Notes under the pieces: model-generated
What the model was told of the DNA's origin: nothing
The model's database searches: none
The model's input: only the letters and a program-made list of their open reading frames with translations
Program-made: the position numbers and the translations under genes
Shown here: one piece after another, positions 2,369 to 54,542 of the stretch
How the letters are laid out: each line of letters begins with the position of its first letter
How positions within the stretch are numbered: the first letter of the stretch is position 1
IMG/VR virus record: IMGVR_UViG_3300047585_000133
Location: 32,001-96,000 of that record
Direction: 5' to 3' (one strand)
DNA: 64,000 bases
DNA from: a virus

Positions 2369-2611
2369 GTGAGCGTTACTGCGCCCGTACCCAGAGAGGG
2401 CGGCGACCGCCTGTTCACCCCGGCCGAGGTGGCGGCGATCTTCCGGGTCGACCCCAAGACGGTCACCCGCTGGGCAGCTGCCAGACCTCCCCGGATCCGC
2501 TCAATGCGTACCCCGGGCGGCCACCGCCGGTTTCCCGAGTCCGAGGTCTACCTGCTGCTGAACGGGCAGGTCGCGGGCACCGCCCAGCAGTTATCAAGAA
2601 AACCTGTATAA
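2369..2611 (+). CDS. bldC: BldC-family MerR-like DNA-binding protein
   Basis: LFTPAEVAAIFRVDPKTVTRWA...RTPGGHRRF closely matches Streptomyces BldC; AAGGAG RBS before GTG 2369. Confidence 0.9.
   Translation: MSVTAPVPREGGDRLFTPAEVAAIFRVDPKTVTRWAAARPPRIRSMRTPGGHRRFPESEVYLLLNGQVAGTAQQLSRKPV
2591..2609. promoter_or_regulatory. conserved 19-bp motif, copy 1
   Basis: TTATCAAGAAAACCTGTAT, just upstream of the tRNA-array promoter. Confidence 0.7.
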
Positions 2612-2616
2612 AAGTC

Positions 2617-2646
2617 TTGCTGGTTGGCGAGAGAGGATGGTACGGT
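2617..2646 (+). promoter_or_regulatory. sigmaA/HrdB-type promoter for the tRNA array
   Basis: TTGCTG-18bp-TACGGT. Confidence 0.55.
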
Positions 2647-2907
2647 TTGAACATGCCGCCGGGGAACCGGCGGACAGCAGACCCCAGCAGTCCAGGACAA
2701 GGAAGCATGGAACTCTCCGCCTCACCCGTTTACCAGCCGTCGTGCTGGCTGAAGGCGCATGACGCCGTCAGCTTCCAGCCCGCGACTGGAAGGGGCAGTG
2801 AGCGCCGGGGGCTCCCCGGGTAGGACCTTACGAGGAACTTGCCCAGGAGCCGCCAGCGGAGAGAAAACCGCAGGCGGCTCCTCTGGTTCCCGGGTACAAC
2901 TGAACAT

Positions 2908-2975
2908 GCGAGTAGCCGCTGGGCGGTAGCCGGTCTCCAAAGCCGGCAAGCTGGGTTCGACTCCTGGTACTCGTG
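2908..2975 (+). tRNA. tRNA-Trp(CCA), shortened D arm
   Basis: CCGGT-CTCCAAA-GCCGG; GGTTCGACTCC T arm; acceptor GCGAGTA/TACTCGT. Confidence 0.8.
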
Positions 2976-3405
2976 CTGGTCCGCGAGGACCTTGCCACCG
3001 GCTGACGGGCGAGAGCCCCGAGGACGGCAACCGGCTCGACTTTTCTCATCTCAACAGCGGAACACGATGCGGCAGGGTGCCAACCTGCCGCACGGTGACC
3101 AGCGGACTGGCCCCTGCCCCGGTATGGTGGCGGAGGAGATCTCCGTACGACCTTTACGGATGGTTCAGGGCACGAAACAAACGGGGCAGGAGCCAGCCTG
3201 CCGGTCACCCAGATTTCGGCGCGGTGAAAGACAATGCAGCTACTCCCGGGGAGCAGCGGCCGTTAAAGGCCGGGGACGTACCGTCAAGGATGGTTCCTGT
3301 ACCGGGCACCGCGCCAGCAAGACTCCCCTCCTCCCGGTGTGCTCACACCCGCCGGGACAAGGGAGCCGTGGGCCCGTCCCTGCTTGCGGGGTCGGGCTCC
3401 ACCAC

Positions 3406-3478
3406 GGGGCCTTGGCGCAGCTGGTAGCGCGTCTGCATGGCATGCAGAAGGTCAGGAGTTCGACTCTCCTAGGCTCCA
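3406..3478 (+). tRNA. tRNA-Ala(GGC)
   Basis: Cloverleaf, loop ATGGCAT, G3:U70. Confidence 0.95.
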
Positions 3479-3481
3479 CGA

Positions 3482-3553
3482 GGGGGCGGTGCGGGTTCGA
3501 ATCCTGCCCGGCGGGAGAAATCCCAACGGTAGCTCAATGGCAGAGCAGCCCCC
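3482..3553 (+). ncRNA. circularly permuted tRNA mimic (T arm - closed acceptor - D arm), YrlA-like
   Basis: GGGGGC / T arm GCGGGTTCGAATCCTGC / CCG..CGG / TAGCTCAATGGCAGAGCA / GCCCCC. Confidence 0.75.
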
Positions 3554-3790
3554 GTCAGTTTGGGCAGGATAAACCGGGCGAAACGTAGATGATCCCGGTG
3601 GAGCGGGGACGGCAGGCCGGCGGAACATCGTGCCTGTGGTACTTGGTTGTCCTGGACCGGGAGGGTACCCCGGACGCAAACCTGGTAGGTGCCGTCGTGA
3701 AACACGGCCGTGAGTAGCGGCGGCAACTGCCCGGCGGGCGCCGCGAGCCCGTTAATAGGAAACCGGACCGAGGATTCCGGACGCGGACCT

Positions 3791-3865
3791 GGGCTGTTAG
3801 CTCACCGCAGGTAGAGCACTGCACCCGCAATGCAGAGGTACCCGGTTCGAGCCCGGGACGGTCCA
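3791..3865 (+). tRNA. tRNA-Ala(CGC)
   Basis: Loop CCCGCAA, G3:U70. Confidence 0.9.
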
Positions 3866-3987
3866 CGGGAGGAAGACGCAGGGTTCGATTCCATGCCCGG
3901 CCGCTTGGGAGGCCGGCGCTCATGCGAGTACGCGTTGCGGAAAGCCTGCGCCGGCCGCGTCCGGTACCTCAGGGCAGAGGACTCCGT
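3865..3987 (+). ncRNA. second permuted tRNA mimic with ~60-nt insert in the acceptor stem
   Basis: GGAG / CAGGGTTCGATTCCATG / CCGG...CCGG / TACCTCAGGGCAGAGGA / CTCC. Confidence 0.6.
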
Positions 3988-3990
3988 CAC

Positions 3991-4063
3991 GGGGAAGTAG
4001 CTCAGCTGGAAGAGCACCCGCCCTGCAAGCGGGATGTCAGGGATTCGAGTTCCCTCTTCTCCA
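3991..4063 (+). tRNA. tRNA-Ala(TGC)
   Basis: Loop CCTGCAA, G3:U70. Confidence 0.9.
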
Positions 4064-4114
4064 CGTCGGCCTCTGGAATCCCCGGGAGAATGATCTCCCG
4101 CCATGCCGGCTCCA

Positions 4115-4188
4115 CGGGATATTGCGTAGTGGTAGCGCGCCTGGTTTGGGACCAGGCGGCTGGGGTTCGATTCCCTGTATCCCGACCA
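4115..4188 (+). tRNA. tRNA-Pro(TGG)
   Basis: Loop TTTGGGA, encoded CCA. Confidence 0.93.
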
Positions 4189-4281
4189 GTCGCCTGGAGC
4201 TGGCTCAAGCTCCCTGGTTTCCCCCGAGCAGGGAGCTGGTCCCGGAAGCACCGGGAGGGCGGCGTTAAGTCCGGTACACGG

Positions 4282-4325
4282 CTGCGGCGCACGGGACATT
4301 CCGGTTCGACTCCGGATCGCCGCAG
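4282..4325 (+). ncRNA. acceptor+T minihelix lacking D and anticodon arms
   Basis: CTGCGGCG-10nt-TCCGGTTCGACTCCGGA-T-CGCCGCAG. Confidence 0.5.
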
Positions 4326-4434
4326 TGCAGTAGGCCGCGTTGCCCCTAGCAAGCGGGCGCCGAAAAACCGCCTGGAGCGGCAGTAGCTTGCAGGTGACCG
4401 GGACGCGATCGCGACGTGAGCCCGGCACCGTCAA

Positions 4435-4508
4435 CGGAGCGTAGCTCAACTTGGCAGAGCACTCGGCTGGGGGCCGAGCGGTTGCGCGTTCAAATCGCGC
4501 CACTCCGA
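4435..4508 (+). tRNA. tRNA-Pro(GGG)
   Basis: Loop CTGGGGG. Confidence 0.92.
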
Positions 4509-4584
4509 CGTGAGGGCCTAGGGCCGGGTAACCGGCTGGCGCGATATACGACCTAGGGAGCGGGAGCACTGGTACCCCGCATAT

Positions 4585-4659
4585 CTGGCTATGGCGCAGC
4601 TTGGCTAGCGCGCTGCCTTCGGGAGGCAGAGGTCCCCAGTTCAAATCTGGGTAGCCAGA
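4585..4659 (+). tRNA. tRNA-Pro(CGG)
   Basis: Loop TTCGGGA. Confidence 0.93.
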
Positions 4660-4711
4660 CGAGACCCAAAGGCCACGGGTCTGCTGGAACGCGGGTTCGC
4701 TACCTGCGTTG

Positions 4712-4818
4712 GATGCAAGGTGTAGGGCGCACAGGGGCGCGCGGACGCCCAGAGCCGGGGGAAACCCGGTAGCTGGGTGGTCACGGGCCTCGGGGCCGGG
4801 TTCAACTCCCGGGGCATC
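4712..4818 (+). ncRNA. multi-arm tRNA-like RNA
   Basis: GATGC/GCATC closing stem, T arm CCGGGTTCAACTCCCGG, no canonical anticodon arm. Confidence 0.4.
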
Positions 4819-4879
4819 GCTGGATCTCAAAGGCCCAAGTGAGGCGGAAGATAGGGCCACGCCCTGCCGGAGATCTTAT

Positions 4880-4953
4880 GGTCGCTTAGCTCAGTTGGAA
4901 CGAGCGCCTGATTGAAACCCAGGAGGACCCCCGTTCGGCTCGGGGAGTGACCA
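4880..4953 (+). tRNA. tRNA-Phe(GAA)
   Basis: Loop TTGAAAC. Confidence 0.88.
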
Positions 4954-5068
4954 CGGTGACGGAGTACTACGTCACTTGGGCCCTGTGGTAAGCGCACCAC
5001 AGGGAAAGCGGTTGGCAGGCTACGCCAGCTCCTCCGGGGGCGAGCCGGGTTCAAAACCCGGGACCGTG
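4952..5068 (+). ncRNA. multi-arm tRNA-like RNA
   Basis: CACGGT/ACCGTG closing stem, several hairpins, T arm CCGGGTTCAAAACCCGG. Confidence 0.4.
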
Positions 5069-5203
5069 CGATGCCGTGACCCTGTCGATCGCAGGATCAC
5101 CACGGCAGCCGGGAAAGAACTTTCCCGGCGCGAAGGTTGCCGGTAACCCCTGCGTTAAAGGGAGGCAGTTCCGTTGCAACGGACTGCCGTGGAACTGGAC
5201 CAT

Positions 5204-5274
5204 GCGGATGTCGTCCAACGGCAGGACAGCAGCCTTCCAAGCTGCTGATGCGGGTTCGAGTCCCGTCTTCCGCT
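5204..5274 (+). tRNA. tRNA-Gly(TCC)
   Basis: Loop CTTCCAA. Confidence 0.95.
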
Positions 5275-5471
5275 CTACGGCACGACGCCCCGCCTGGCTC
5301 CGCCCAAATGGTACCCAGGGGGATACGGCCGGGAGAGTAGCGCTCCTCCCGGTAAGCCGGCCTGTTGCAACGGGCCGGACTTCGTGCCGCCCGGGTGATC
5401 CTGCCGGAGCCCCTGTGAGCCCTGCCGCAAGCGGGGCAATACCAGGCTCCCCGGCGGGACTCCGGGACCCT

Positions 5472-5544
5472 GCGCCGCTAACTCAACTGGCAGAGTACCG
5501 TCCTCTTAAGTCGGGAGTTGGGGGTTCAAGTCCCTCGCGGCGCA
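5472..5544 (+). tRNA. tRNA-Lys(CTT)
   Basis: Loop CTCTTAA. Confidence 0.93.
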
Positions 5545-5622
5545 CTGAAGGAATGCTGAAGGCCAAACCCGGGGCTGGTGCCGACGAAGAGGCCTCCTGC
5601 CACCAGCAGCATTCCTTCTCAC

Positions 5623-5696
5623 GGGCAAGTAGCAGAACGGCATATGCGGCGGATTCAAGCTCCGCGCTCTTACGGGTTCGAATCCCGTCTTGCCTA
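5623..5696 (+). tRNA. tRNA-Leu(CAA), short variable arm
   Basis: Loop TTCAAGC. Confidence 0.88.
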
Positions 5697-5776
5697 CGTG
5701 CCGGGTCGCTCCCGGCGGAGCAGGGGATCGTGCACAGGACCCGTCCTGCCCAGTGGACCGGGGAAGTGCTCACCAT

Positions 5777-5848
5777 TGGAGTATGGCGTAATCGGCAGCG
5801 CGCCGGGTTCTGGTCCCGGCGGTCTAGGTTCGAGTCCTGGTACTCCAG
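5777..5848 (+). tRNA. tRNA-Gln(CTG)
   Basis: Loop TTCTGGT, U1-A72. Confidence 0.95.
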
Positions 5849-5916
5849 CGTGATCGTCGGAGTTTCGTTGGCAGGATCCCAGTCCTGCACCTGGGCAACT
5901 TCGCCGGCGGTCTTAT

Positions 5917-5989
5917 GCCCCTGTAGCTCAGACGGAAGAGCAGTGCACCCGTAATGCACAGGCCAGCGGTTCGAAGCCGCTCGGGGGCT
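5917..5989 (+). tRNA. tRNA-Thr(CGT)
   Basis: Loop CCCGTAA. Confidence 0.9.
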
Positions 5990-6189
5990 CGTAGTGCAAC
6001 ACCGGAGACCTCGGTCTCGCATGCACGTCCGGGTAGCGCAAGGTGGAACCGTCCGGCGGTTAGAAGGAGCGAGGTACAGGCGGGGCTCCCGCGACGGCTA
6101 GGGATGAGGCCGTCACCACGATCGTGATCCTGGTCAGGCCCAGGTGTGCGAGTGGCCATAGGCATGAGGGCCGCCGCCAGGATCACCAT

Positions 6190-6274
6190 GTCCGTGTGGC
6201 GAAATGGCATACGCGCCAGCTTGAGGTGCTGGTGCCCCGCGAGGGGTGTGAGGGTTCGAGTCCCTCTTCGGACA
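6190..6274 (+). tRNA. tRNA-Leu(GAG)
   Basis: Loop TTGAGGT, long variable arm. Confidence 0.95.
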
Positions 6275-6373
6275 CATGGTGGGAGATCCCGGTGACGGGC
6301 TAACCGGGGCGGATTGCGTCCAGCGGTCTGCTAGCTCAGGGCCGCTTCTGGACAGAAGAGCCCCACCTTACAC

Positions 6374-6444
6374 GCCTCTGGCTCCAACGAGCGGGCGTCC
6401 CCTGTACGGACACCAGCCCGGGGTGGCACCGGGTGGAGGCTCCA
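6374..6444 (+). tRNA. atypical tRNA-Thr(TGT)
   Basis: GCCTCTG/TGGAGGC+TCCA; mini D arm; loop CCTGTAC; degenerate T loop GGTGGCA. Confidence 0.6.
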
Positions 6445-6449
6445 TTCGA

Positions 6450-6520
6450 TCCGGGATCGTTTAACGGCAGGACGCGGTATTTTGAGTGCCGCTGTGTTGG
6501 TTCGAGTCCAGCTCCCGGAA
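6450..6520 (+). tRNA. tRNA-Gln(TTG)
   Basis: Loop TTTTGAG. Confidence 0.9.
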
Positions 6521-6532
6521 CGAAAGTCACAT

Positions 6533-6605
6533 GCCCGGATAGCTCAGTTGGCAGAGCATGCGCATGGTAAGCGCAAGGTCATCGGTTCAAATCCGTTTTC
6601 GGGCT
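6533..6605 (+). tRNA. tRNA-Thr(GGT)
   Basis: Loop ATGGTAA. Confidence 0.93.
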
Positions 6606-6617
6606 CGCATTAAATAT

Positions 6618-6689
6618 GTCGGCGTAACTCAGCGGTAGAGTGCGGCGTTGCCAACGCCGTTGTCGCGGGTCCGAATCCCGTCGCCGACT
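6618..6689 (+). tRNA. tRNA-Gly(GCC)
   Basis: Loop TTGCCAA. Confidence 0.93.
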
Positions 6690-6911
6690 CTATGGGGTAC
6701 CAGATCTCTGCTGGCCCAAAGCCCGAGCCATGGCACAGAGCATCCTCCGAGGCCGGACGCGGCCGACGGGGACCCCATTTCAGGCAGGTACAGGATCAGT
6801 ATGGTCTGGCAAAGCGGCGGAAGTCGCCATTCTCCGGAGAACGCAACCTGACCTGACTCCCTATCCGACTCCCGGGACGGATCCAGACAAGGGGGATAAG
6901 TCCCGGGGCAT

Positions 6912-6983
6912 GCGACCGTAGTGTCAAAGGCAGCACACGACCTTCCCAAGGTCGGTGAGCCGGTTCGAATCCGGTCGGTCGCT
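6912..6983 (+). tRNA. tRNA-Gly(CCC)
   Basis: Loop TTCCCAA. Confidence 0.93.
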
Positions 6984-7100
6984 CACCTGACACCAGCATC
7001 AGGCTCCGCGAGCCGCCTGCCCCAAGGTTTCCGGGCAGATGAGACTACGGTTGCCCAAAGGTATCTTCAAGCGGACTCCGGGCTGGCGGGGTCCGTCCAT

Positions 7101-7185
7101 GGGCGTGTGGTGGAACGGCAGACACGCTGGCCTCAGGTGCCAGTGGCCCGGAAGGGCCGTGAGGGTTCGAATCCCTCTTCGCTCA
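7101..7185 (+). tRNA. tRNA-Leu(CAG)
   Basis: Loop CTCAGGT, long variable arm. Confidence 0.95.
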
Positions 7186-7288
7186 CAAAGCCGCTGGCGA
7201 CGCGGCGGCCTGGCATGGCGGGATCAGCATTTCCAGGATGCCCGCCTGACCATTTACCCCAAGCCTGGACCCGGGGGAGCGTCGTAAT

Positions 7289-7373
7289 GGAGAGTGAACC
7301 GGACGGGCGTCCGGGCTTCGCTGCTAACGAATGCGCGCTGTGAAGGCGTGGGTTTCGAGTACTCCGCTCTCCG
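7289..7373 (+). tRNA. tRNA-Ser(GCT)
   Basis: Loop CTGCTAA, long variable arm, G73. Confidence 0.88.
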
Positions 7374-7806
7374 CTCGACGGGCTGTAAGGAACGGGTTGT
7401 TCCGGCCGGCAAGACGGGTTCGAGTCCCGTACAGTCCACGCGGGGTTCGATTCCCCGCTACGGGTGCTGCGACCCGTGCCAGGCTCCGGCCGCGAAGCGC
7501 TCCCAGGGGCGACCGCAGATTATGGAGAGGTCGCCTAGTCTGGCCTATGGCGCCGCGTCGGAAGCGCGGTCGGGGTAACCCTCGCGAGTTCGAATCTCGC
7601 CCTCTCTGCCACTCGCCGGCAGCCATGTCCAGAGTGAGCACCTCCTGCTGGCCGGGGGTCGTGAAGATGATCTCCACGCCGAACTCCCCGTGCTTGCCCT
7701 CCACCATGAAGAGGGCCCTCTTGATCATGGTCACCACAGGGAGCGCAGCCGCGTCTGGATTCTTCAGCCCCCGGACCGTCACGGTCACCTTTATCTCGCC
7801 TTCCAC
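7324..7806 (-). CDS. hypothetical protein antisense within the tRNA array (coding-like only over 7612-7806)
   Basis: First ~63 codons have phage-like GC3; the frame then runs antisense over tRNA-Ser. Confidence 0.45.
   Translation of the reverse strand: MEGEIKVTVTVRGLKNPDAAALPVVTMIKRALFMVEGKHGEFGVEIIFTTPGQQEVLTLDMAAGEWQRGRDSNSRGLPRPRFRRGAIGQTRRPLHNLRSPLGALRGRSLARVAAPVAGNRTPRGLYGTRTRLAGRNNPFLTARRAESGVLETHAFTARIR
7380..7438 (+). ncRNA. 59-nt Ala-identity mini-tRNA without anticodon (tmRNA TLD-like)
   Basis: GGGCTGT/ACAGTCC with G3:U, A73, perfect T arm ACGGGTTCGAGTCCCGT. Confidence 0.65.
7524..7611 (+). tRNA. tRNA-Ser(GGA)
   Basis: Loop TCGGAAG, encoded CCA. Confidence 0.9.
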
Positions 7807-7821
7807 CCCGGAAGGCTATCT

Positions 7822-7904
7822 GGCGAGGTCGCACAGTGGCCTAGTGCGCTTGCTTCGAAAGCAAGTGGGGGCGACCCCCGTGAGTTCGAATCTCACCCTC
7901 GCTG
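7822..7904 (+). tRNA. tRNA-Ser(CGA)
   Basis: Loop TTCGAAA. Confidence 0.93.
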
Positions 7905-7988
7905 CTCTGTCCCGGCCGCTCACTTCGCGTGCTTCGAGGTTTCGTGAGCCTCCCTCTTTTAGGTCGCACACGAGCCGGGACAGGTCAT

Positions 7989-8071
7989 GGCGGGGTCGCC
8001 TAGCGGCCTAGGGCGCCGGCTTTGAAACCCGGTGAGGGGAACCTCCGTGGGTTCGAATCCCACCTCCGCTG
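7989..8071 (+). tRNA. tRNA-Ser(TGA)
   Basis: Loop TTTGAAA, Ser-type D and variable arms. Confidence 0.9.
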
Positions 8072-8269
8072 CTAGACGCCCGTGCGGGTGCGCCTGGTGT
8101 TCCAGTTGCCCGCGCCCCAGCCGGACCCGAACCCGGCGGCGGCGAGCGCGAAGAAGGCGAGCCCGATGGCGATGATCCCGACGACGACGGTCAGCGAGAT
8201 GCTGTGGACGCCGACGATCGCGATGATCGCGGCGACGATGAAGGCGAGGACGGCAAGGCCGTAGGTCAT
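8072..8269 (-). CDS. small two-TM membrane protein
   Basis: AAGGAG RBS; two hydrophobic helices, basic tail. Confidence 0.8.
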   Translation of the reverse strand: MTYGLAVLAFIVAAIIAIVGVHSISLTVVVGIIAIGLAFFALAAAGFGSGWGAGNWNTRRTRTGV

Positions 8270-8328
8270 GACATGCTCCTTCTACTGGAGGAGCATGCGC
8301 TCCCCGGTGCTTCCGGGGCGCGCACCAC

Positions 8329-8402
8329 GGGCGTGTAACTCAGATGGTCAGAGTACTTCCCTGATAAGGAAGAAGGCGCTGGTTCAAGTCCAGCCTCGCC
8401 CA
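8329..8402 (+). tRNA. tRNA-Ile(GAT)
   Basis: Loop CTGATAA. Confidence 0.95.
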
Positions 8403-8472
8403 CCGGCACGCAGCGATCATCTGAGCCAGGACGTTCCGGAGACACGGCTGTACCGGGCGCTGCGAGCCTCAC

Positions 8473-8545
8473 GGCGGTGTAGCTCAGTCGGCAGAGCACC
8501 CGACTCATGATCGGGTTGCCGGTGGTTCGATCCCACCTACCGCTA
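8473..8545 (+). tRNA. tRNA-Met(CAT), elongator
   Basis: Loop CTCATGA. Confidence 0.9.
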
Positions 8546-8547
8546 CC

Positions 8548-8623
8548 GGGGGCGTATCCCCTCTGCCTTATAAGCAGTCGAAAGGGTAACCGGTGCAAGC
8601 GGGTTCAAGCCCCGCCGCCCCTA
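8548..8623 (+). tRNA. non-canonical tRNA-Ile(TAT)
   Basis: GGGGGCG/CGCCCCT acceptor, CTGC-CTTATAA-GCAG, normal T arm, no D arm in the usual place. Confidence 0.7.
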
Positions 8624-8624
8624 C

Positions 8625-8695
8625 GCCTCTCTAGCACAATGGAATGCAGCGGGCTTTTACCCCGTGGAGTCAGGGTTCAAGTCCCTGGGGAGGCA
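8625..8695 (+). tRNA. tRNA-Lys(TTT)
   Basis: Loop CTTTTAC. Confidence 0.92.
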
Positions 8696-8699
8696 CTGA

Positions 8700-8773
8700 G
8701 CGCCAGTAGCTCAGCGGAACAGAGCGGCTGGCTTCTATCCAGCTGGTCGGGGGTTCGATTCCCTCCTGGCGTA
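8700..8773 (+). tRNA. tRNA-Arg(TCT)
   Basis: Loop CTTCTAT. Confidence 0.93.
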
Positions 8774-8857
8774 CGTGAACGGCCGCGCTTAAAGACGGCC
8801 CCGTGGACCCGCAGCTAGCGGCGGGGACTCAGAGACTCGTCGGTCAAGCAGTCCTAT

Positions 8858-8929
8858 GGTCCTATCGTCTAGCGGTCAGGACGGCTGCTTCTCAGGCAGC
8901 TGACGCGGGTTCGACTCCCGCTGGGACTA
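8858..8929 (+). tRNA. tRNA-Glu(CTC)
   Basis: Loop TTCTCAG. Confidence 0.95.
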
Positions 8930-9109
8930 CGAACACGGGTAAGCGCGCTTGGCCTTTACCGGACCGATCATCCGGGTAACGGCCTGGAGACCCTGAAGGG
9001 CGAAGCCTCGGCTATGAGGGCTTGTTATGATCCTCCTGTGAAGCAGGGAAATCGCCCTGGGACCGGCGGTACATGGCACGCCCGGGGACCCGCCTGCAAC
9101 GCGCACCAA

Positions 9110-9181
9110 GCCCCCATCGTCTATTGGTTAAGATCGCGGCCTTTCAAGTCGCGGAACGGGGTTCGAATCCCCGTGGGGGAG
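9110..9181 (+). tRNA. tRNA-Glu(TTC)
   Basis: Loop CTTTCAA. Confidence 0.93.
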
Positions 9182-9212
9182 CAAGGCCGGGACTGTTATC
9201 CTGGTCGTGCGA

Positions 9213-9287
9213 CGCGGAGTGGGGAAGTTCGGTGTTCCCGCTGGCCTCATAAGCCAGAGATCGCTGGTTCAAATCCAGCCTCCGCTA
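9213..9287 (+). tRNA. tRNA-fMet(CAT)-like
   Basis: Loop CTCATAA, unpaired C1:U72. Confidence 0.85.
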
Positions 9288-9567
9288 CGAGAGAAGCAGG
9301 TGCTAGCGCTCTTACGTCCGGACGTACTGGGGGCCTGTTCGCTAGCACCGGACCGTGACCGGCTGCCCGGCCGGCTCTCGCAACGGGCAGGCCCATCCGG
9401 ATGGCAGTACGGGTGTCAGCAGACCCCCTCGCGCTGCGGGCCGAAGCGGGGGACCAGAATCTTCTAGTGCGAGGAGAAATCATGCGAGAAAAAGACCCGG
9501 CTCCGTGCGGCGCCTGCGGGCAGGTACACGACGGGCCGTGCCCTGGCCAGGGCGGCTGAACGAACGA

Positions 9568-9641
9568 TCTCCGGTAGCTCAATCGGCAGCAGCAGCGTCC
9601 TGTTAAGGCGATGGTTCCAGGTTCGAGTCCTGGTCGGAGAG
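9568..9641 (+). tRNA. tRNA-Asn(GTT)
   Basis: Loop CTGTTAA. Confidence 0.92.
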
Positions 9642-9718
9642 CTGTGCGGTCCTGCCCGCGCCGACACCACCCGGGATGCACGGGGAGGGAAGCACCCGGC
9701 GGGGTGCAGCAGGATCAT

Positions 9719-9792
9719 GGTTGTGCAGAGCAGACGGAGTGCTCGCCTCCCTGTCAAGGAGGAGATCACGGGTTCGAGTCCCGTCACGACCG
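9719..9792 (+). tRNA. tRNA-Asp(GTC)
   Basis: Loop CTGTCAA. Confidence 0.93.
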
Positions 9793-10006
9793 CTGAGGGG
9801 AAGGTCATTACCGGGCGGCAGGACACCTTCCCCTTCAGTCCAGCCCGGCGCGGCGCCGGAGTTCGCGGTGGGCAACCTGGCTGACGTTCAGGATGGCGCG
9901 CCAGCCGCCGTACCACTTGCCGACGGCAAGTCCGACAAGTAGACCGACGACCAGGCCTGCGAGGAACATACCTTCAACGGTACCTCCGGCCGAAGTGCCT
10001 GACTAC

Positions 10007-10081
10007 GGGTGTTTAGCTCAGCGGGAGAGCGCTGTCTCGACAAGGCAGAGGCCGCAGGTTCGATCCCTGCACCACCCACCA
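10007..10081 (+). tRNA. tRNA-Val(GAC)
   Basis: Loop TCGACAA, encoded CCA. Confidence 0.92.
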
Positions 10082-10209
10082 GCAGCATGGGCTCTACCCG
10101 GTGATCTCCAGGGGCCGGCAGTTTCGTTCTAGACTCCGGGGCGGCTGGCGGAAGGTCCGAAGGCGGTAATCCTGGTTAAGCCGCCCGAATAGCCCATGCT
10201 GCTGTACAT

Positions 10210-10283
10210 GCCCTCATAGCTCAGCGGACAAGAGCGGCGCGCTACGGACGCGCAGGACGGGAGTTCGAGTCTCTCTGGGGGTA
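10210..10283 (+). tRNA. tRNA-Arg(ACG)
   Basis: Loop CTACGGA. Confidence 0.95.
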
Positions 10284-10450
10284 CGCGAAGGTGGTGTAAG
10301 AGGCCGGCTCCGGCCGGGTCCGTGCGCACGGGCCCGGCCGGACAGGGGACCTCAAACGGAAGGAGGCGGAACCATGGATAACCGCGCTCCGGACAGCACT
10401 CCCCGGTTCCACCCGGGGCAGTCCTGGCAGAATCCAGGCCTTCGTGCCAC

Positions 10451-10522
10451 GGGCAATTAGCTCAGCGGGAGAGCGCTTCGTTCACACCGAAGAAGTCGGC
10501 GGTTCGAGTCCGTCATTGCCTA
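10451..10522 (+). tRNA. tRNA-Val(CAC)
   Basis: Loop TTCACAC. Confidence 0.95.
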
Positions 10523-10524
10523 CC

Positions 10525-10600
10525 GGGTCGTGATCCATATGGCTGAGGAAACGGTTTGTGAGACCGTTATTGACGGGTTCGAATCCCGTACGACCCTCCA
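10525..10600 (+). tRNA. tRNA-His(GTG)
   Basis: Loop TTGTGAG, encoded CCA; G-1/C73 not evident. Confidence 0.82.
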
Positions 10601-10601
10601 T

Positions 10602-10686
10602 GGCAGGTTACTCAAGCGGCAACGAGGGCGGCCTGTAAAGCCGCTGGCCCAGTCCTGCGCTGGTTCGAGTCCAGCACCTGTCACCA
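10602..10686 (+). tRNA. tRNA-Tyr(GTA)
   Basis: Loop CTGTAAA, long variable arm, CCA. Confidence 0.95.
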
Positions 10687-10687
10687 T

Positions 10688-10761
10688 GCACCTGTAGCTC
10701 AGCGGACAGAGCGCCGGTTTCCGGAACCGGGTTGCCGGGGGTTCGAGTCCCTCCAGGTGCA
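10688..10761 (+). tRNA. tRNA-Arg(CCG)
   Basis: Loop TTCCGGA. Confidence 0.95.
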
Positions 10762-10915
10762 CGTGCATCCCCAGGGCCGCCGGCTAACCATTGGCCGGTT
10801 ACAACAGCCCCCTGCTCAGTCCTCATGGACATACATGGCCGGATGAAGGGAGTCCTGGTACCAGGCGGCACCTCCAAGTGCCCGGTACCGGCGGATAGGC
10901 CCGGGGATGCACCCT

Positions 10916-10987
10916 GACGGGATGGCCGAGCGGCTCAGGCACGCCCCTGCAAAGGGCGATACACGGGTTCGAATCCCGTTTCCGTCT
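10916..10987 (+). tRNA. tRNA-Cys(GCA)
   Basis: Loop CTGCAAA, U73. Confidence 0.95.
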
Positions 10988-11022
10988 CGGGGACCTGGTC
11001 CGGTGCACCGACGCAGATGCTA

Positions 11023-11095
11023 AGCCCGGTAGCTCAGCGGACAGAGCCGCCGTTTCCTAAACGGAAGACCGAGAGTTCGAATCTCTCCCGGGCCG
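11023..11095 (+). tRNA. tRNA-Arg(CCT)
   Basis: Loop TTCCTAA. Confidence 0.92.
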
Positions 11096-11135
11096 CCTGA
11101 ACGTGTTCCGCTGCTGAGCTGCGCCGGGAAGGGTC

Positions 11136-17244: not shown

Positions 17245-17465
17245 TGACCTGCCAGTGCGACGTCATCCCGGAGCGGCCGTGCCCGGCGCAGGTCACCCAG
17301 GAGGACCTGCTGTGCGACACCTGCCGGAAAGCCAGGAGACCCGGCATGATCCACGCCGCCTCCACGATCTTCGGCGGGAGCATCGTGCGGACCTCGCACC
17401 TGGCCATCGACGCAAGGGTGTTCGCCCCGGAAGGATTACAGGCGGCAGCGGGGGAGGACGCATGA
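17244..17465 (+). CDS. small Cys-rich protein (paralog of 16652-16861)
   Basis: TCQC...TQEDLLCDTCR. Confidence 0.65.
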   Translation: MTCQCDVIPERPCPAQVTQEDLLCDTCRKARRPGMIHAASTIFGGSIVRTSHLAIDARVFAPEGLQAAAGEDA

Positions 17466-20745: not shown

Positions 20746-20959
20746 GGTTGCCGGAATCGTCGAACTCGCCGTTCCGCACCCCGCCGAGGAAGTCGTGCCA
20801 CTCGCCGGGCGTGAAGCACAGGATGCCTTCCTCCGGCCTGCGGCTGTTGCGCACGTTCACGGAGCCGTCGAGGAGGAACTGCACCTCGACGCAGTTGCCG
20901 TTGGCGTAGCTGAAGGAGGACTTGATCCATTCCGGCTCTGATGTAACTCTTTGTGCCAT
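20726..20959 (-). CDS. DUF397 (BldB-family) protein
   Basis: WIKSSFS..NGNCVEV...VRNSR.PE...L.FT..EW..FL.GVR.GEFD. Confidence 0.9.
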   Translation of the reverse strand: MAQRVTSEPEWIKSSFSYANGNCVEVQFLLDGSVNVRNSRRPEEGILCFTPGEWHDFLGGVRNGEFDDSGNLSGSRD

Positions 20960-21062: not shown

Positions 21063-21290
21063 TCACTGCCAGATAGAGATCGCCGCCCGGATCTTTCCGT
21101 CGTCCGGGTTGCCGAGCACTTCGGTCAGGTCTTCCTGCGTCGGCCGGGCTTCCTCGTCCAGGGGCATGCGCACGATCAGGTCAGCCAGCCGCTCACGGCG
21201 GCGCTCCTTCTCGTCCAGTTCCCCGGTGACCCGCTCCTTCGCCAGCTTCAGCGCGCCGATGATGACCGTTCCCGCCTCTTCGATGTCCAT
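21063..21290 (-). CDS. hypothetical protein
   Basis: High GC3. Confidence 0.6.
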   Translation of the reverse strand: MDIEEAGTVIIGALKLAKERVTGELDEKERRRERLADLIVRMPLDEEARPTQEDLTEVLGNPDDGKIRAAISIWQ

Positions 21291-21327
21291 GCCCCGCATC
21301 ATAAAGCGTCCCGGTAAAGTCACGGAC

Positions 21328-21504
21328 ATGGACGTAATGCGCGCCGGGCGCAGCCTGAGCCAGGTTCCGGAGAGCCTGTGCACCCTCTACCGGGTCACCG
21401 GAGAGGACTGGCAGGACCACGAGTGCATCGGCATCGTGAAGTCTCCGGAGATAGCGGCAGCCGTCTGCGAGGCTGTCAACGCACGGGGTATACCGCTGCC
21501 ATGA
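21328..21504 (+). CDS. hypothetical protein
   Basis: Divergent small ORF. Confidence 0.5.
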   Translation: MDVMRAGRSLSQVPESLCTLYRVTGEDWQDHECIGIVKSPEIAAAVCEAVNARGIPLP

Positions 21505-35490: not shown

Positions 35491-35519
35491 TTGCTCAATA
35501 CAGCTTTTCTTGATATTGT
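35491..35519 (+). promoter_or_regulatory. promoter with 19-bp motif as spacer
   Basis: TTGCTC-AATACAGCTTTTCTTGA-TATTGT. Confidence 0.8.
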
Positions 35520-41792: not shown

Positions 41793-41821
41793 TTGAGGAA
41801 TACAGCTTTTATTGATATTGT
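41793..41821 (+). promoter_or_regulatory. promoter with 19-bp motif as spacer
   Basis: TTGAGG-AATACAGCTTTTATTGA-TATTGT; leaderless ATG 6 nt later. Confidence 0.8.
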
Positions 41822-51916: not shown

Positions 51917-51958
51917 TGACCTCCTGCCCCTTCCGGGGGAGGAGGTCTTGAGACTAAA

Positions 51959-52327
51959 TCAGAAGCGTCTCGGCCAGGTTCCGTCGTTCTCGGAACCGGG
52001 CGTCATCTGCTCCTGCATAGAGCGGAGAACGTGCGGCTGCCGCATAGCGGCTACGGCACGTTCTCCTACGTCGTCGTCTCCGGGGCCGAGCCCGACGCTG
52101 AGCGAGCGCATGTTCGCAGGATCGCTGTTGTGAAGAACCCGCAACTTCCACTGACCTTCATCGTGGTTGTACGGAGTGATCACCGTGTGCCCGGTCTCAA
52201 GGTGGGCGATGCCCAGGCCGTCGCTGCGCGAGGTGATCCCGTTGCGCTCAAGTGACGGACGGGCGCGTTCCCATCGCTGCTCGTCTTCCGAAGCCGCCCT
52301 TTTCCGCAGCAGGTCGGAGATGCCCAT
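51959..52327 (-). CDS. hypothetical protein (paralog of 52514-52879)
   Basis: ETGHT...H...SV.LG...M.EQM. Confidence 0.7.
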   Translation of the reverse strand: MGISDLLRKRAASEDEQRWERARPSLERNGITSRSDGLGIAHLETGHTVITPYNHDEGQWKLRVLHNSDPANMRSLSVGLGPGDDDVGERAVAAMRQPHVLRSMQEQMTPGSENDGTWPRRF

Positions 52328-52521
52328 CAGTCCTCCCCGGGGTCGCCGGACTCCAGGATCATCCAGGCCAGCGCCCGCCACTCCTGCCAGGTGGCAATCG
52401 GGGACAAGATGATCCACTTCTTGCAGCGGCTGTCCTCGGTGAACTGCGGCTGGCCCTCAGGATCGGCCAGCCGCCGTGCGCCGGGCTCGCCGGTAACGGT
52501 CAGCCTCCCGCTGTTACTCAT
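52327..52521 (-). CDS. hypothetical protein
   Basis: Coupled ORF. Confidence 0.55.
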   Translation of the reverse strand: MSNSGRLTVTGEPGARRLADPEGQPQFTEDSRCKKWIILSPIATWQEWRALAWMILESGDPGED

Positions 52522-52879
52522 CGCCGTACGGTCCGTTCATCTGCTCGTGCATCCGGTTCATTACGTTCCGGTCGTTGAGGTGCTTCACCAGGTTGGGAAA
52601 CCACTGGCGCGGGTCGTGCCCGAGCGGCACGGACATGGGGTAGCCGGCGTTGCGGTGCTGAATGACGACCTGCGGGCCTTTTACATCGTCAGGGCCGAAA
52701 GCGCCGGGATCGGTCACGGGAAGCAGCGTGTGGCCGGTTTCCATCCGGACGCTGTGCGGCCCGTTGGGAGTGAATGCCGAGGCGAGCTGCTGCCGGAAAG
52801 CGACGTTGTTCCCGTAGTCTTCCAGACTCTGACCGGAGTGCCGCTCCGGGCTGGTGAAGTGGTAGTCGTTGTATCCCAT
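52514..52879 (-). CDS. hypothetical protein (paralog of 51959-52327)
   Basis: GGAGG RBS; shared motif. Confidence 0.7.
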   Translation of the reverse strand: MGYNDYHFTSPERHSGQSLEDYGNNVAFRQQLASAFTPNGPHSVRMETGHTLLPVTDPGAFGPDDVKGPQVVIQHRNAGYPMSVPLGHDPRQWFPNLVKHLNDRNVMNRMHEQMNGPYGDE

Positions 52880-53364
52880 CAGCTCCTCCCGAACTCATCC
52901 CACGGGTCAGTCTCGTCCGGCTCCGGCGGCGGCCACTGGTGACTGACGTCCTCGTGAGCATGCGGCACCGCGACGTGCTCGTGCCGGGGGACCGAGTGCT
53001 CAGCATCATGATGACGGGGCAGGACGTTAGCTGCTTCCGGCCACTCCGTCGCCTCGCGCACCTCGTCGGCACTCCACCCGTGATGGCTCATCATGTGCAG
53101 CGGCAGGACTTCGCGCGTATGCGGGTCGTAGTGGAGCATGCTCGTGACAACGTTCCAGCGGTTAGCAATAAATCCCGTATTGCTGGAGGCGTCCGGAGAC
53201 CCGTACCAGGGCTGGCTGTCGCGCTCGGCGTGCTCTTCCTCGTGCAGGCTCGTCAGGGTCCGCTGAGGGATCATGTGCGCCGTGCTCAGGCCGTGGTCGT
53301 CGCGCATGTGCTCCCGCAGCTCCGTCAGGCTTCTCAGCGGCCCGTGGGCGCTGCGGCGAAAGGG
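52879..53364 (-). CDS. His-rich module, probable -1 frameshift extension of the upstream gene
   Basis: Frame entered by slippage at C CCT TTC; two HxxxxHG modules. Confidence 0.6.
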   Translation of the reverse strand, partial: PFRRSAHGPLRSLTELREHMRDDHGLSTAHMIPQRTLTSLHEEEHAERDSQPWYGSPDASSNTGFIANRWNVVTSMLHYDPHTREVLPLHMMSHHGWSADEVREATEWPEAANVLPRHHDAEHSVPRHEHVAVPHAHEDVSHQWPPPEPDETDPWDEFGRS

Positions 53365-54542
53365 CGGCGGCTCGCGCTGCGGGAGGCGAACTTGCCGTAG
53401 AGAGAGCAGCCCGGCTGGTCGTGGTCCCCGGTCGTCGTGCACTCCAGGGCATGGTACTTGGGCCGGTCGGCGGTGTAGTCGTGGTAGCCGTCGTACCACT
53501 GCTTCGGCTCGCCCCGGGTGTCGGCCTTCTCCAGGGGACTCGGGCCGTAGTCGTAAACCCCGTTGACGGCCCGCTGGCCGGCGTTCCACCCGCGCTGGTA
53601 GTGGCCCCGTGCGGTCTTCTCCTCTTCGCCCCGGGCGGCCGTACGGCTCGCACTGTGGAACGGGGTGTCCCGGAACACCTGGTTCGGGGTATTCCACCAC
53701 TGGTTCGGCGACTCTCTTTCGGGCATGCCCTCGCCGCCCCGGTCCGGGGTGGTGGCGTGCACGAACGACCGGGCCGGGTCGCGGGCAAGCTGCCGCTCGG
53801 CTTCCTGGCGGGGGTCGCCGTCCTGGCCCAGGTGCATGAGGTGAATCTGGGAGGAGGCGGGGTGGGTGATCGTGCCGTACCAGTCGCGGCCTGTTCTGCC
53901 GATGGACACCTGGTGCCCGCTGGACAGCGTCCGGTAGGGCCGGGCATTCGCGGTCACCCGCTTCTTCGCTCCCTCGGCCCGCAGCCGGGCCATGACGCGG
54001 GGATCGGCGCCGGAGGCGGCGACGGCCATGTGCCGGACAAGCTGTTCCTCGTTCAGCTGCTGTCCTGCGGTACCCCGGTAACGGAGAGAAGACTTCTTCT
54101 TCGACTTGCCCTTCGGCGGGGGCGGCGGACCGCTATCGTCGTCGTCACCGGGCGGCGGCTCAGTGCCGCTGTCGTCGCCCGGTCCTTCAAACGGCCCGTC
54201 TCCCGGCTCGGAATCCCCGTGAGGCGGGCCGTCTCCATCCGCAGGGGCTCCGTCCGGGCCGACCATGCCGGGATCGACGAGGCCGCCGTCCGGGCCGACG
54301 TCGGAGGGAGCACCAGGACCCATCGGCATCTGGGGCATACCGGGAAAAGCGGGCTGAACCCGGACGATGTAGTTCTGGCCGCGTTAAACAGAAGTCACAC
54401 CCGATCGTCCCGTCAGACCGGCCGACTACCTGACCGCTTCCACAGAACGGGCTAAACAATGGCTGGTGACCAGAGGGTCGCCCGGATCGTGGGCTTCCTT
54501 GATCAGACCAGCCGTGCCAGCACGCAGGTTGCTTGACTTCAT
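53334..54542 (-). CDS. zinc-ribbon head-module protein (~398 aa) with two coding gaps (54451-54455, 54381-54387)
   Basis: Three frames join as MKSS...SHC|PFCGSGQVVGRSDGTIGCDFC|GQNYIVRVQPAFPGMPQ; AAGGGGG RBS. Confidence 0.75.

What the first reader, a model, noticed from the sequence alone, without database searches (positions are those of the whole stretch)
2369..54542. Possible phage-encoded bld development-sensing system: BldC + DUF397/BldB-family + bldA-codon gates
Seen: a near-canonical BldC homologue (2369-2611, itself with an in-frame TTA at 2591), a stand-alone DUF397 gene (20726-20959) with no adjacent XRE partner, TTA-led gaps in a head gene, and no Leu(UAA) among 42 tRNAs. Established: bldA, bldB (DUF397) and bldC control entry into sporulation, and BldC represses development to prolong vegetative growth. 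Inference: the phage may hold the host in the vegetative state and restrict virion assembly to low-bldA conditions.
Basis: inference. Interest (0 to 1): 0.72.

Follow-up and report, generated by a model that had tools for sequence, protein, structure and literature searches.

The report
Phage BldC, DUF397 and TTA gates
A large uncultured soil phage of filamentous actinobacteria carries copies of host sporulation regulators and has rare-codon gaps in virion-region genes, but nothing yet shows that these parts act together as one sensor of host development.

Summary
The window lies in a 120-kb IMG/VR record of a roughly 160-kb phage with no integrase found. It is a distant relative of the Myrna and Bxz1-type mycobacteriophages.

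Most of the observations hold:
- There is a true BldC-family gene at 2369-2611, with an in-frame TTA at 2591.
- There is a DUF397 gene at 20726-20959 with no recognisable XRE neighbour.
- There are 39 tRNAs plus 1-2 doubtful ones, not 42. None reads UUA.
- The gene at 54542-53334 is broken by two TTA-headed inserts of 5 and 7 nt.

Four corrections apply:
- BldC's TTA is the first three bases of an 18-nt motif that occurs 19 times in the record.
- The gapped gene has no known family, so "head gene" is unsupported.
- The tRNAs for CUA and GUA are missing too.
- The virion structural gene beside the tail sheath also carries TTA-headed gaps, here and in 5 relatives.

All these traits sit in one well-supported clade, so their co-occurrence cannot be separated from shared descent.

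I read them as separate modules: host-mimic regulators (BldC, DUF397, WhiB, Lsr2) and phiHau3-type UUA bypass sites. A single circuit remains possible at about 15%. This scan has noted the same combination before on other DNA.

The parts
2369..2611 (+). BldC-family small MerR-like HTH gene (80 aa). The domain spans residues 15-64. The in-frame TTA is codon 75, at 2591-2593.
   Evidence: NCBIfam HTH_BldC scores 82.7 bits against a cut-off of 77. PDB 6AMA gives E 6e-16. Pfam HTH_17 matches. A BldC-like gene sits directly upstream of the tRNA array in 7 related loci.
2591..2608 (+). One copy of an 18-nt AT-rich motif. It overlaps the last codons of the BldC-like gene and supplies its TTA.
   Evidence: The window has 9 matches at up to 3 mismatches, against 0 expected. 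The whole record has 19 at up to 4 mismatches. The same motif lies at or after the 3' end of the BldC genes of L083, L084 and L086, in different reading frames.
2908..11097 (+). tRNA array of 39 genes. There are no readers for UUA, CUA, GUA, ACA or AUA.
   Evidence: ARAGORN. Rfam.
7288..7373 (+). Probable 40th tRNA, Ser(GCU), with an unusual architecture resembling tRNA-Sec.
   Evidence: Rfam tRNA-Sec model, 35.4 bits, below its gathering score of 47. Relaxed ARAGORN calls Ser(gct) at 7289-7374. Relatives have Ser(gct) at the same place in the array.
20726..20959 (-). DUF397 (BldB-family) gene, 77 aa.
   Evidence: PF04149, E 2.5e-18. It sits tail-to-tail with the 738-aa gene, as in G001, G012, G020 and G021.
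21066..21302 (-). Conserved small gene directly upstream of the DUF397 gene, with no known family. The TTA of the longer ORF (21063-21383, codon 23) lies 5' of the part shared with relatives.
   Evidence: tblastn to relatives starts at residues 28-30. No family found.
53334..54542 (-). Gene with an N-terminal CxxC-N15-CxxC zinc ribbon and unknown function. Two TTA-headed inserts break it: 5 nt at 54455-54451 and 7 nt at 54387-54381. Each follows a TGT codon.
   Evidence: Alignment with 4 relatives. Frames. Intact 391-aa orthologue at L178:2315-3490. Independent contig across both inserts. Matches in 20 of 22 related records, interrupted only here among those inspected.
54592..54717 (-). Short ORF that duplicates the original 5' end of the zinc-ribbon gene. 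An insertion or duplication of about 182 nt separates it from the present start at 54542.
   Evidence: blastn of the region against relatives. Sequence.

Best explanation
The window belongs to a lineage of uncultured, roughly 160-kb contractile-tailed actinophages in which no integrase was found. Three kinds of feature have accumulated in this lineage, and I read them as separate modules inherited together, not as one wired circuit.

(1) Small host-type regulators.
- The phage carries a genuine BldC-family DNA-binding protein, a BldB-family DUF397 protein, and, outside the window, WhiB and Lsr2 homologues.
- I infer that the BldC copy binds AT-rich direct repeats as host BldC does and mimics the host's brake on sporulation.
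- I infer that the DUF397 protein joins host BldB-type oligomers.

(2) A 39-40-gene tRNA array that leaves UUA, CUA and GUA to the host.

(3) UUA-headed coding gaps in the virion structural gene next to the tail sheath and in a zinc-ribbon gene upstream of the portal.
- I infer that ribosomes pausing at the hungry UUA hop over these gaps, as proposed for the phiHau3 terminase.

Shown here: the genes, their family membership, the gaps, and their distribution among relatives. Inferred: what the regulators bind, that the gaps are bypassed, and any dependence on host bldA.
For: Lineage:
- The portal is 38-40% identical to those of Myrna, Phabba, Finch and Stormageddon.
- Major head, portal and protease PHROG families match.
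- No tyrosine or serine recombinase was found in the record or in 4 complete relatives, 0 of 5 each.

BldC:
- It passes the curated HTH_BldC model.
- The DNA-contact residues named in PMC5859096 (passages read) are Lys26, Arg30 and His46. All three are identical in the alignment, and Lys36 is Arg.
- A BldC-like gene occurs in 13 of 21 relatives. It sits at different places among them.
- The copies in G011 and G004 are 48 of 54 and 46 of 48 residues identical to Streptomyces BldC. This fits repeated capture of host copies.

DUF397:
- It occurs in 11 of 21 relatives, also at different places. In G003 and G014 it lies inside the tRNA array.

WhiB and Lsr2 are present in the record.

Gaps:
- The zinc-ribbon gaps are real DNA.
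- The 21 codons between them differ from L178 only at synonymous positions.
- The virion structural gene (phrog_2756, next to the sheath phrog_2839) is interrupted in 6 of 19 genomes at 4 sites.
- Every insert starts with an in-frame TTA.
- The landing triplet equals the take-off codon in G014 and G020, and in the +2 slip on a U run in this phage.
- phiHau3 has the same grammar.

Trait distribution: all traits fall in one clade.
Against: - No expression, protein or binding data exist.
- The host is unknown. This phage's BldC is closest (69-77%) to Micromonosporaceae and Streptosporangiales copies, not to Streptomyces copies.
- RNA folding around the zinc-ribbon gaps is unremarkable, z = 0.18.
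- In those two gaps the landing triplets (AGC, CGC) match a Cys codon only in positions 2 and 3.
- The perfect co-occurrence of gaps with BldC and DUF397 (6 of 6) is what a single circuit would also predict.
- Genomes were scored as gap-free on two genes only.
Confidence: 0.55

Rival explanations
1. The phage BldC, helped by DUF397, keeps the host vegetative, so charged tRNA-Leu(UAA) stays scarce. The phage supplies every other tRNA but not this one. Ribosomes therefore hop the UUA gaps, and virion proteins are made only in young, low-bldA hyphae.
For: - All 6 gap-bearing genomes have both BldC and DUF397.
- None of the typed arrays has Leu(UAA).
- BldC sustains vegetative growth in S. venezuelae (PMC6428758, abstract and passages).
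- UUA bypass was proposed as a sensor of host stage for phiHau3 (PMC10732093, abstract and sections 19, 21 and 23).
- Earlier notes of this scan report BldC together with TTA hops in another phage (unchecked).
Against: - All traits lie in one clade. Within it, BldC is in 11 of 11 genomes, while gaps are in 6 of the 9 that hold the gene, so BldC does not discriminate.
- G010 has gaps with only 2 tRNAs.
- CUA and GUA readers are absent too.
- BldC's own TTA is part of a motif.
- The main text of the BldC regulon paper has 0 mentions of bldA or adpA.
- L149 and L150 have BldC with a tRNA-Leu(taa) within 10 kb.
Confidence: 0.15
2. The BldC-like protein works on the phage's own DNA and not on the host regulon. 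It would act as an architectural or transcription factor for phage promoters, for instance the repeated AT-rich 18-nt motif or the tRNA array just downstream. Mycobacteriophage D29 Gp36 works this way.
For: - D29 Gp36, a BldC/Xis-like protein, binds direct repeats in the phage genome and regulates phage genes (PMC12266134, passages).
- The gene sits directly upstream of the tRNA array in 7 related loci.
- The copy in this subclade has diverged to 64% identity, with a 2-residue insertion beside Lys36.
- The AT-rich motif has 19 copies.
Against: - The G004 and G011 copies are 96% and 89% identical to host BldC, and the gene's positions vary. This is easier to explain by host mimicry.
- The motif shows no evident AATTxxxxC direct repeats. 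This is my reading.
- G005, G010, G011 and G013 carry BldC away from any large array.
Confidence: 0.2
3. The zinc-ribbon gene of this phage is simply decaying, and its two inserts are not bypassed. Only the part after the internal ATG near 54338, or nothing, is expressed.
For: - Only this genome is interrupted among the 20 of 22 records that hold the gene.
- The 5' end also carries a rearrangement of about 182 nt.
- No RNA structure signal was found.
- The landing triplets are only near-cognate.
Against: - Both inserts start with the rarest codon, in frame, directly after TGT, and together they restore the frame (5+7 nt).
- There are zero non-synonymous differences from L178 in the 21 codons between them.
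- The same variant is present in a second study.
- The same TTA grammar recurs in the virion structural gene next to the sheath in 6 genomes.
Confidence: 0.1

Closest known systems
BldC of Streptomyces coelicolor / S. venezuelae (PDB 6AMA, 6AMK; NCBIfam NF033787)
   Same: It is a single-domain MerR-like winged HTH of about 70-80 aa and scores above the curated family cut-off. Lys26, Arg30 and His46 are kept.
   Different: It is encoded by a phage that is probably lytic. Identity is 64%, with a 2-residue insertion next to Lys36, which is Arg here. The C-terminal tail runs into a phage DNA motif. Its targets are unknown.
UUA-headed coding gaps in the large-terminase gene of Streptomyces phage phiHau3 and two prophages (Smith et al. 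2013 as cited in, and Antonov et al. 2023, PMC10732093)
   Same: Short inserts that break the frame start with an in-frame TTA directly after a take-off codon and end in a triplet like that codon.
   Different: The gaps lie in other genes: a virion structural protein beside the sheath, and a zinc-ribbon protein. The lineage is unrelated and much larger, and no integrase was found in it. A lysis-lysogeny decision is therefore unlikely to be the purpose. The inserts are 2-15 nt, against 7-10 nt in the known cases. Several landing triplets are only near-cognate.
BldB / DUF397 proteins of WhiJ-AbaA-BldB loci (PMC10294661); DUF397-Xre pairs predicted as toxin-antitoxin-like modules (PMC2701414)
   Same: The Pfam DUF397 domain is well over its cut-off, and the protein is small.
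   Different: No Xre/WhiJ or AbaA neighbour was found. The upstream partner is a conserved small protein of no known family. Phage-borne copies sit at several different places among relatives.
Mycobacteriophage D29 Gp36 (PMC12266134)
   Same: It is a phage-encoded BldC/Xis-like small HTH protein.
   Different: Gp36 resembles BldC in structure only and prefers GC-rich repeats. The protein here is a sequence-level member of the BldC family.
Actinophage-borne WhiB and Lsr2 homologues. That these are common is recalled and comes from no paper read here.
   Same: They are host-type small regulators carried by actinophages, and both are present in this record.
   Different: I did not find phage BldC orthologues described in the papers listed (15 of 39 hits listed).

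Membership tests
BldC family (NF033787) | Scores above the curated family model | tested here: met
   82.7 bits against a cut-off of 77.
BldC family (NF033787) | Single MerR-like wHTH domain with no coiled-coil or effector domain | tested here: met
   The protein is 80 aa and the domain spans 15-64. No other Pfam domain was found.
BldC family (NF033787) | DNA-contact residues Lys26, Arg30, His46 and Lys36 (PMC5859096) | tested here: met
   In the alignment K, R and H are identical and Lys36 aligns with Arg, next to a 2-residue insertion. The residue numbering is my own count from that alignment.
BldC family (NF033787) | Binds AT-rich direct repeats head-to-tail and delays development | not testable with these tools
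   Needs EMSA or ChIP and genetics.
Excisionase / recombination directionality factor | Works with an integrase encoded by the same element | tested here: not met
   PF00589 and PF00239 each gave 0 of 5 records, covering this record and 4 complete relatives.
DUF397 / BldB family (PF04149) | Pfam domain above the gathering score | tested here: met
   66.4 bits against 24.
WhiJ-AbaA-BldB type locus | Adjacent Xre/WhiJ-type HTH gene and AbaA-type gene | tested here: not met
   The neighbours have no Pfam, PHROG, NCBIfam or PADLOC family.
phiHau3-type UUA-headed coding gap | Short insert that breaks the frame, or carries a stop, relative to intact orthologues | tested here: met
   Zinc-ribbon gene: 5 and 7 nt. 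Virion structural gene: 4 and 2 nt here, and 7, 8, 8, 8 and 15 nt in G004, G001, G014, G010 and G020.
phiHau3-type UUA-headed coding gap | Insert begins with an in-frame TTA directly after the take-off codon | tested here: met
   Met in 9 of 9 inserts.
phiHau3-type UUA-headed coding gap | Landing triplet cognate to the take-off codon | tested here: inconclusive
   Identical in G014 (TGG), in G020 (TCT) and in the U-run slip here. Two of three bases match in 5 other inserts: the two zinc-ribbon gaps, G001, G004 and G010. The 4-nt insert here is unclear. phiHau3 uses synonymous codons.
phiHau3-type UUA-headed coding gap | Full-length product made by bypass, increased when tRNA-Leu(UAA) is scarce | not testable with these tools
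   Needs reporter assays and mass spectrometry.
bldA-dependent control | Host has a developmentally regulated single tRNA-Leu(UAA) | not testable with these tools
   The host is unknown. The only hints are the phage's own TTA scarcity (11 of 33,771 codons) and near-identical Streptomyces BldC in two relatives.

The most novel reading that the evidence does not exclude
A lytic actinophage clade runs a two-armed programme on host development.
- A manipulating arm: captured BldC, BldB-family, WhiB and Lsr2 copies that freeze the hyphae in the vegetative, low-bldA state.
- A sensing arm: UUA-headed gaps in tail and head-region genes. These yield virion proteins only while UUA stays unread. The phage protects that state by supplying about 40 tRNAs but never the UUA reader.
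Probability: 0.15. Interest if true: 0.85.

Novelty: new variant of a known kind. Interest (0 to 1): 0.55.

Why it matters
If the parts were coupled, this would be the first case of a virus that both reads a bacterial developmental clock, through the bldA tRNA, and resets it.

Even uncoupled, the data add three things:
- BldC-family genes are recurrent cargo of large soil actinophages.
- UUA-headed coding gaps extend from temperate phage terminases to virion genes of an unrelated lineage in which no integrase was found.
- The data name concrete cassettes for testing UUA-dependent bypass.

They also warn annotators that these genes look like pseudogenes.

Tried and rejected
- Near-identity search of GenBank phages with 20 kb of the window found only a 58-nt tRNA-like match.
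- Two composition-only (GC3) scans for further TTA-headed frame switches did not recover even the four known gaps. They returned antisense-frame noise, so they say nothing about the number of gaps.
- RNA folding of the zinc-ribbon gap region gave z = 0.18 here and -1.62 in L178. This gives no support for a stimulatory structure.
- The zinc-ribbon protein has no Pfam, PHROG or NCBIfam family and no GenBank phage match. The protein atlas gave only sub-threshold hits of 0.76-0.78. A PADLOC hit to PDC-S64 at E 0.0064 was ignored.
- The PADLOC 'mad1' hit of BldC (29.5 bits) is read as generic HTH likeness.
- The promoter and terminator scan of 1600-3000 found nothing above shuffles.
- The idea that the BldC-like gene is an excisionase was rejected, because no integrase was found.
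- The in-frame TTA in the 1346-aa protein (record 15426-15424) sits at a module boundary. The ORF is continuous here and in G012. I could not tell whether it is an ordinary codon.
- The crude gene calls include false ones. The minus-strand call at window 69864-70487, with 2 TTAs, overlaps a plus-strand WhiB match. The call at 61468-61767 contains a motif copy. The TTA census is therefore an upper bound.
- No RNA holder was listed by the look-up of sequencing runs. Runs X4 and X5 covered only small parts of the stretch.
- The split match of the zinc-ribbon query in G002 was not inspected.
- The tRNA array of G004 and of the fragments G016-G019 was not typed.
- Supplementary tables of PMC10732093, which list the published gap sequences, were not open. 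I read the phiHau3 gaps from the GenBank record instead.

Full report
WHAT THE DNA IS

The window is bases 32001-96000 of a 120,290-b IMG/VR virus record rated 76% complete. GC content is 62-70%.
- PHROGs identify a major head protein (29517-30542, minus strand), a portal (49643-51910, minus strand) and a head-protease fusion (31826-35440, minus strand).
- The portal is 38-40% identical over about two thirds of its length to portals of Mycobacterium phages Myrna and Phabba, Rhodococcus phage Finch and Gordonia phage Stormageddon. In all, 227 GenBank records matched, none closer.
- IMG/VR holds many close relatives: 197 stretches encode the head protein, and the best 80 are 81-99% identical. 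Fourteen of the 21 records I followed are rated complete, at 124-166 kb.
- Neither a tyrosine nor a serine recombinase is found in this record or in four complete relatives, 0 of 5 for each family. The lineage is therefore probably lytic.

THE BLDC-LIKE GENE

The ORF at 2369-2611(+) codes for 80 aa.
- It passes NCBI's curated BldC model at 82.7 bits against a cut-off of 77.
- It aligns with the BldC chains of 6AMA and 6AMK at E 6e-16, with 34 of 53 aligned residues identical. PMC5859096 names those entries as the BldC-DNA complexes.
- The same paper names Lys26 and Arg30 as the major-groove contacts, His46 as the wing residue in the AT-rich minor groove, and Lys36 as a flexible contact (passages). 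In the alignment the first three are identical. Lys36 is Arg, next to a two-residue insertion.
- It is the only copy in the record.
- In GenBank phages the best match is one uncultured contig at 58%. The other seven records match at 38-44%.
- In IMG/VR, 119 stretches encode relatives.

Within this lineage, 13 of 21 relatives carry a BldC-like gene, and 9 of the 14 complete ones do.
- In seven loci it sits 300-400 nt upstream of the first tRNA of a large array.
- In G004, G005, G010, G011, G013 and G019 it sits elsewhere.
- The G011 and G004 copies are 48 of 54 and 46 of 48 residues identical to the Streptomyces protein.
- The copy in this window is closest (69-77%) to Micromonosporaceae and Streptosporangiales BldC.
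- Different positions and very different divergence suggest repeated capture from hosts. That argues the gene is useful as a host look-alike.

BLDC'S TTA

The TTA at 2591 is in frame, as codon 75 of 80, beyond the conserved domain. It is also the first triplet of an 18-nt AT-rich motif.
- The motif occurs 9 times in the window at up to 3 mismatches, against 0 expected.
- It occurs 19 times in the record at up to 4 mismatches, mostly just upstream of gene starts on either strand.
- The same motif lies at the end of the BldC genes of L083, L084 and L086. In L083 a different frame reads it as the stop codon. Nine other lineage copies have no TTA in the tail.
- I therefore read this TTA as a by-product of a regulatory DNA element overlapping the gene's end, not as a bldA gate on BldC.

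DUF397

The gene at 20726-20959(-) is a clear DUF397.
- Its neighbours have no recognisable family. The upstream small gene is conserved next to DUF397 in G001, G004 and G020.
- Homology of that upstream gene starts at residues 28-30. The TTA at codon 23 of the long ORF therefore probably lies before the true start.
- DUF397 occurs in 11 of 21 relatives, at several places. In G003 and G014 it lies inside the tRNA array, between tRNA-Gln(UUG) and tRNA-Thr(GGU).
- Among 80 BldC-bearing viral loci, 13 have a DUF397 ORF within the roughly 10 kb of flank that I held. Nine of these 13 come from contigs outside the set of relatives studied here. I had no baseline rate to compare with this.
[quoted passage not shown] DUF397-Xre pairs were predicted to be toxin-antitoxin-like modules (PMC2701414, passages). 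The direction of any effect of a phage copy cannot be predicted.

tRNAs

ARAGORN finds 39 tRNAs, all between 2908 and 11097, and none elsewhere in the record.
- A 40th tRNA, Ser(GCU), is probable at 7288-7373.
- There is no reader for UUA. There is also none for CUA, GUA, ACA or AUA.
- Eight related loci hold arrays of 33-40 tRNAs, two pairs of them near-identical. All lack Leu(UAA), Leu(UAG) and Val(UAC). Some have Thr(UGU) and Ile(UAU).
- In the complete relative G001, all 38 Rfam tRNA matches lie inside the typed array. The missing quarter of this record is therefore unlikely to hide a UUA reader.
- Other relatives have only 1-6 tRNAs.
- TTA is the rarest sense codon in my crude gene calls, at 11 of 33,771 codons. 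CTA has 25 and GTA has 178.
- The absence of a UUA reader is expected from codon usage alone, and it is not specific to UUA. It fits the gate idea but does not discriminate.
- In two BldC-bearing loci of other viral lineages, a tRNA-Leu(taa) lies within 10 kb of BldC.

THE TTA-HEADED GAPS

On the minus strand, the gene that starts at 54542 reads through a zinc-ribbon motif.
- In L177, L178, L179, L180 and L181 this is one open frame.
- Here two inserts break it: TTAGC at 54455-54451 and TTAACGC at 54387-54381. Each follows a TGT codon and each opens with an in-frame TTA. Together they add 12 nt.
- The 21 codons between them differ from L178 at 11 positions, all synonymous.
- A 255-nt contig from a different study covers 54221-54475 with one mismatch and no gap. 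The other full holder may be the source sample. The inserts are therefore real DNA.
- The gene is found in 20 of 22 related records. Of the flagged matches I inspected, only this one is interrupted.
- Its function is unknown. 'Head gene' is a guess from its place four genes upstream of the portal.

- The intact orthologue L084:708-1244 is a 'virion structural protein' (phrog_2756). It lies next to the sheath (phrog_2839).
- Of 19 records with a match, 6 are interrupted. The alignment shows that every insert starts with an in-frame TTA. I inspected 10 of the 19 in that alignment; for the other 9 I rely on the single stop-free match.

| Genome | Take-off codon | Insert |
|---|---|---|
| This phage, first site | TGT | 4 nt |
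| This phage, second site | TTT | 2 nt, a +2 slip on a run of five T |
| G001 | TGG | TTAATTGT |
| G004 | TGG | TTAATGC |
| G014 | TGG | TTACCTGG |
| G010 | CAG | TTACTTAG |
| G020 | TCT | TTAGGAGCCTAGTCT (in frame, carries a stop) |

- In G014 and G020 the last triplet of the insert equals the take-off codon. This is exactly as in phiHau3, where GGC is followed by TTACTCCGGT and TCT by TTAACGGTCC.
- Bypassing has experimental support for phiHau3 (PMC10732093, sections 19, 21 and 23).
- A gene of the tail module cannot plausibly be dead in a third of the lineage. I therefore take bypass as the likely reading for that gene, and by analogy for the zinc-ribbon gene. Nothing here measures it.

ARE THE PARTS ONE SYSTEM?

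- The 6 gap-bearing genomes all have both BldC and DUF397.
- Of the 13 genomes without gaps, 5 have BldC and 4 have DUF397, one of these weakly.
- On a head-protein tree of 20 records, every gap, 11 of the 12 BldC carriers and 9 of the 11 DUF397 carriers fall in one clade with 100/99 support.
- Within that clade, BldC is in 11 of 11 genomes, DUF397 in 9 of 11, and gaps in 6 of the 9 that hold the gene.
- This amounts to one evolutionary event, not repeated association.
- The three loci lie 18 and 34 kb apart on different strands.
- G010 keeps gaps with only 2 tRNAs.
- The main text of the BldC regulon paper never mentions bldA or adpA.
- The record also encodes WhiB and Lsr2 homologues. BldC and DUF397 thus look like two more members of the usual actinophage set of host-type regulators.

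VERDICT

The observations are largely right. The unifying interpretation is neither refuted nor supported beyond co-inheritance.

Most likely (0.55) these are separate modules:
- regulators that mimic host proteins;
- a tRNA set shaped by codon use;
- phiHau3-type bypass sites.

The single-circuit reading keeps about 0.15. Earlier notes of this scan describe the same combination in other phage genomes and reached the same open verdict. I did not check those genomes.

LIMITS
- The host is unknown.
- Gaps were scored in two genes only.
- My gene calls are crude.
- No expression data exist.
- The supplements of the bypass paper were closed.

Noticed in passing
window 2591-2608, 26890-26907, 27596-27613, 35499-35516(-), 41801-41818(-), 55572-55589(-), 60108-60125(-), 61587-61604 and others: An 18-19-nt AT-rich motif (as at 2591-2608) occurs 19 times in the 120-kb record, against 0 expected. 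Most copies lie 10-60 nt upstream of gene starts on either strand. It may be a phage-specific promoter or operator, and it is conserved in relatives next to the BldC gene.
   Followed up: partly
window 54476-54717: The 5' end of the zinc-ribbon gene is duplicated. A remnant ORF (54592-54717, minus strand) carries the ancestral N-terminus. About 182 nt further on, a new start at 54542 with a strong ribosome-binding site repeats the same eight-residue stretch.
   Followed up: partly
L133:16186-16259 and L136:16186-16259: ARAGORN calls a tRNA with anticodon CUA (amber-reading, labelled 'Pyl') at the array position where this phage and other relatives have tRNA-Arg(UCU). It may be a suppressor tRNA.
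   Followed up: no
L084:10547-10620 and 14650-14730 (same in L085): Two tRNA-like genes have odd anticodon loops. ARAGORN reports a 2-base and a 4-base anticodon. L083 and L086 have an 80-81-nt 'tRNA-Pro(CGG)' at the second place.
   Followed up: no
record G000:C1:101826-102032(+) and 27157-27324(-), both outside the window: The record holds a WhiB-family match (56.5 bits) and an Lsr2-family match (77.3 bits). The Lsr2 gene lies just after the virion structural gene that carries the gaps.
   Followed up: partly
G003:C1:137661-137819 and G014:C1:57943-58101: In two relatives the DUF397 gene sits inside the tRNA array, between tRNA-Gln(UUG) and tRNA-Thr(GGU), about 4 kb from BldC.
   Followed up: partly
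G001:C1:88562-90144: The orthologue of the 1346-aa protein appears in three frames in G001, with about 540 nt of extra DNA and stops inside. These may be further gaps or an inserted element.
   Followed up: no
window 8548-8623 and 6276-6449: Relatives have tRNA-Ile(UAU) and tRNA-Thr(UGU) at these array positions. Here neither ARAGORN nor Rfam calls a tRNA, so the copies may be degenerate.
   Followed up: no
window 17436-17438 and record 110268-110270: Besides BldC, two more credible in-frame TTA codons lie within the last nine codons of their genes. One is directly before the stop codon.
   Followed up: no
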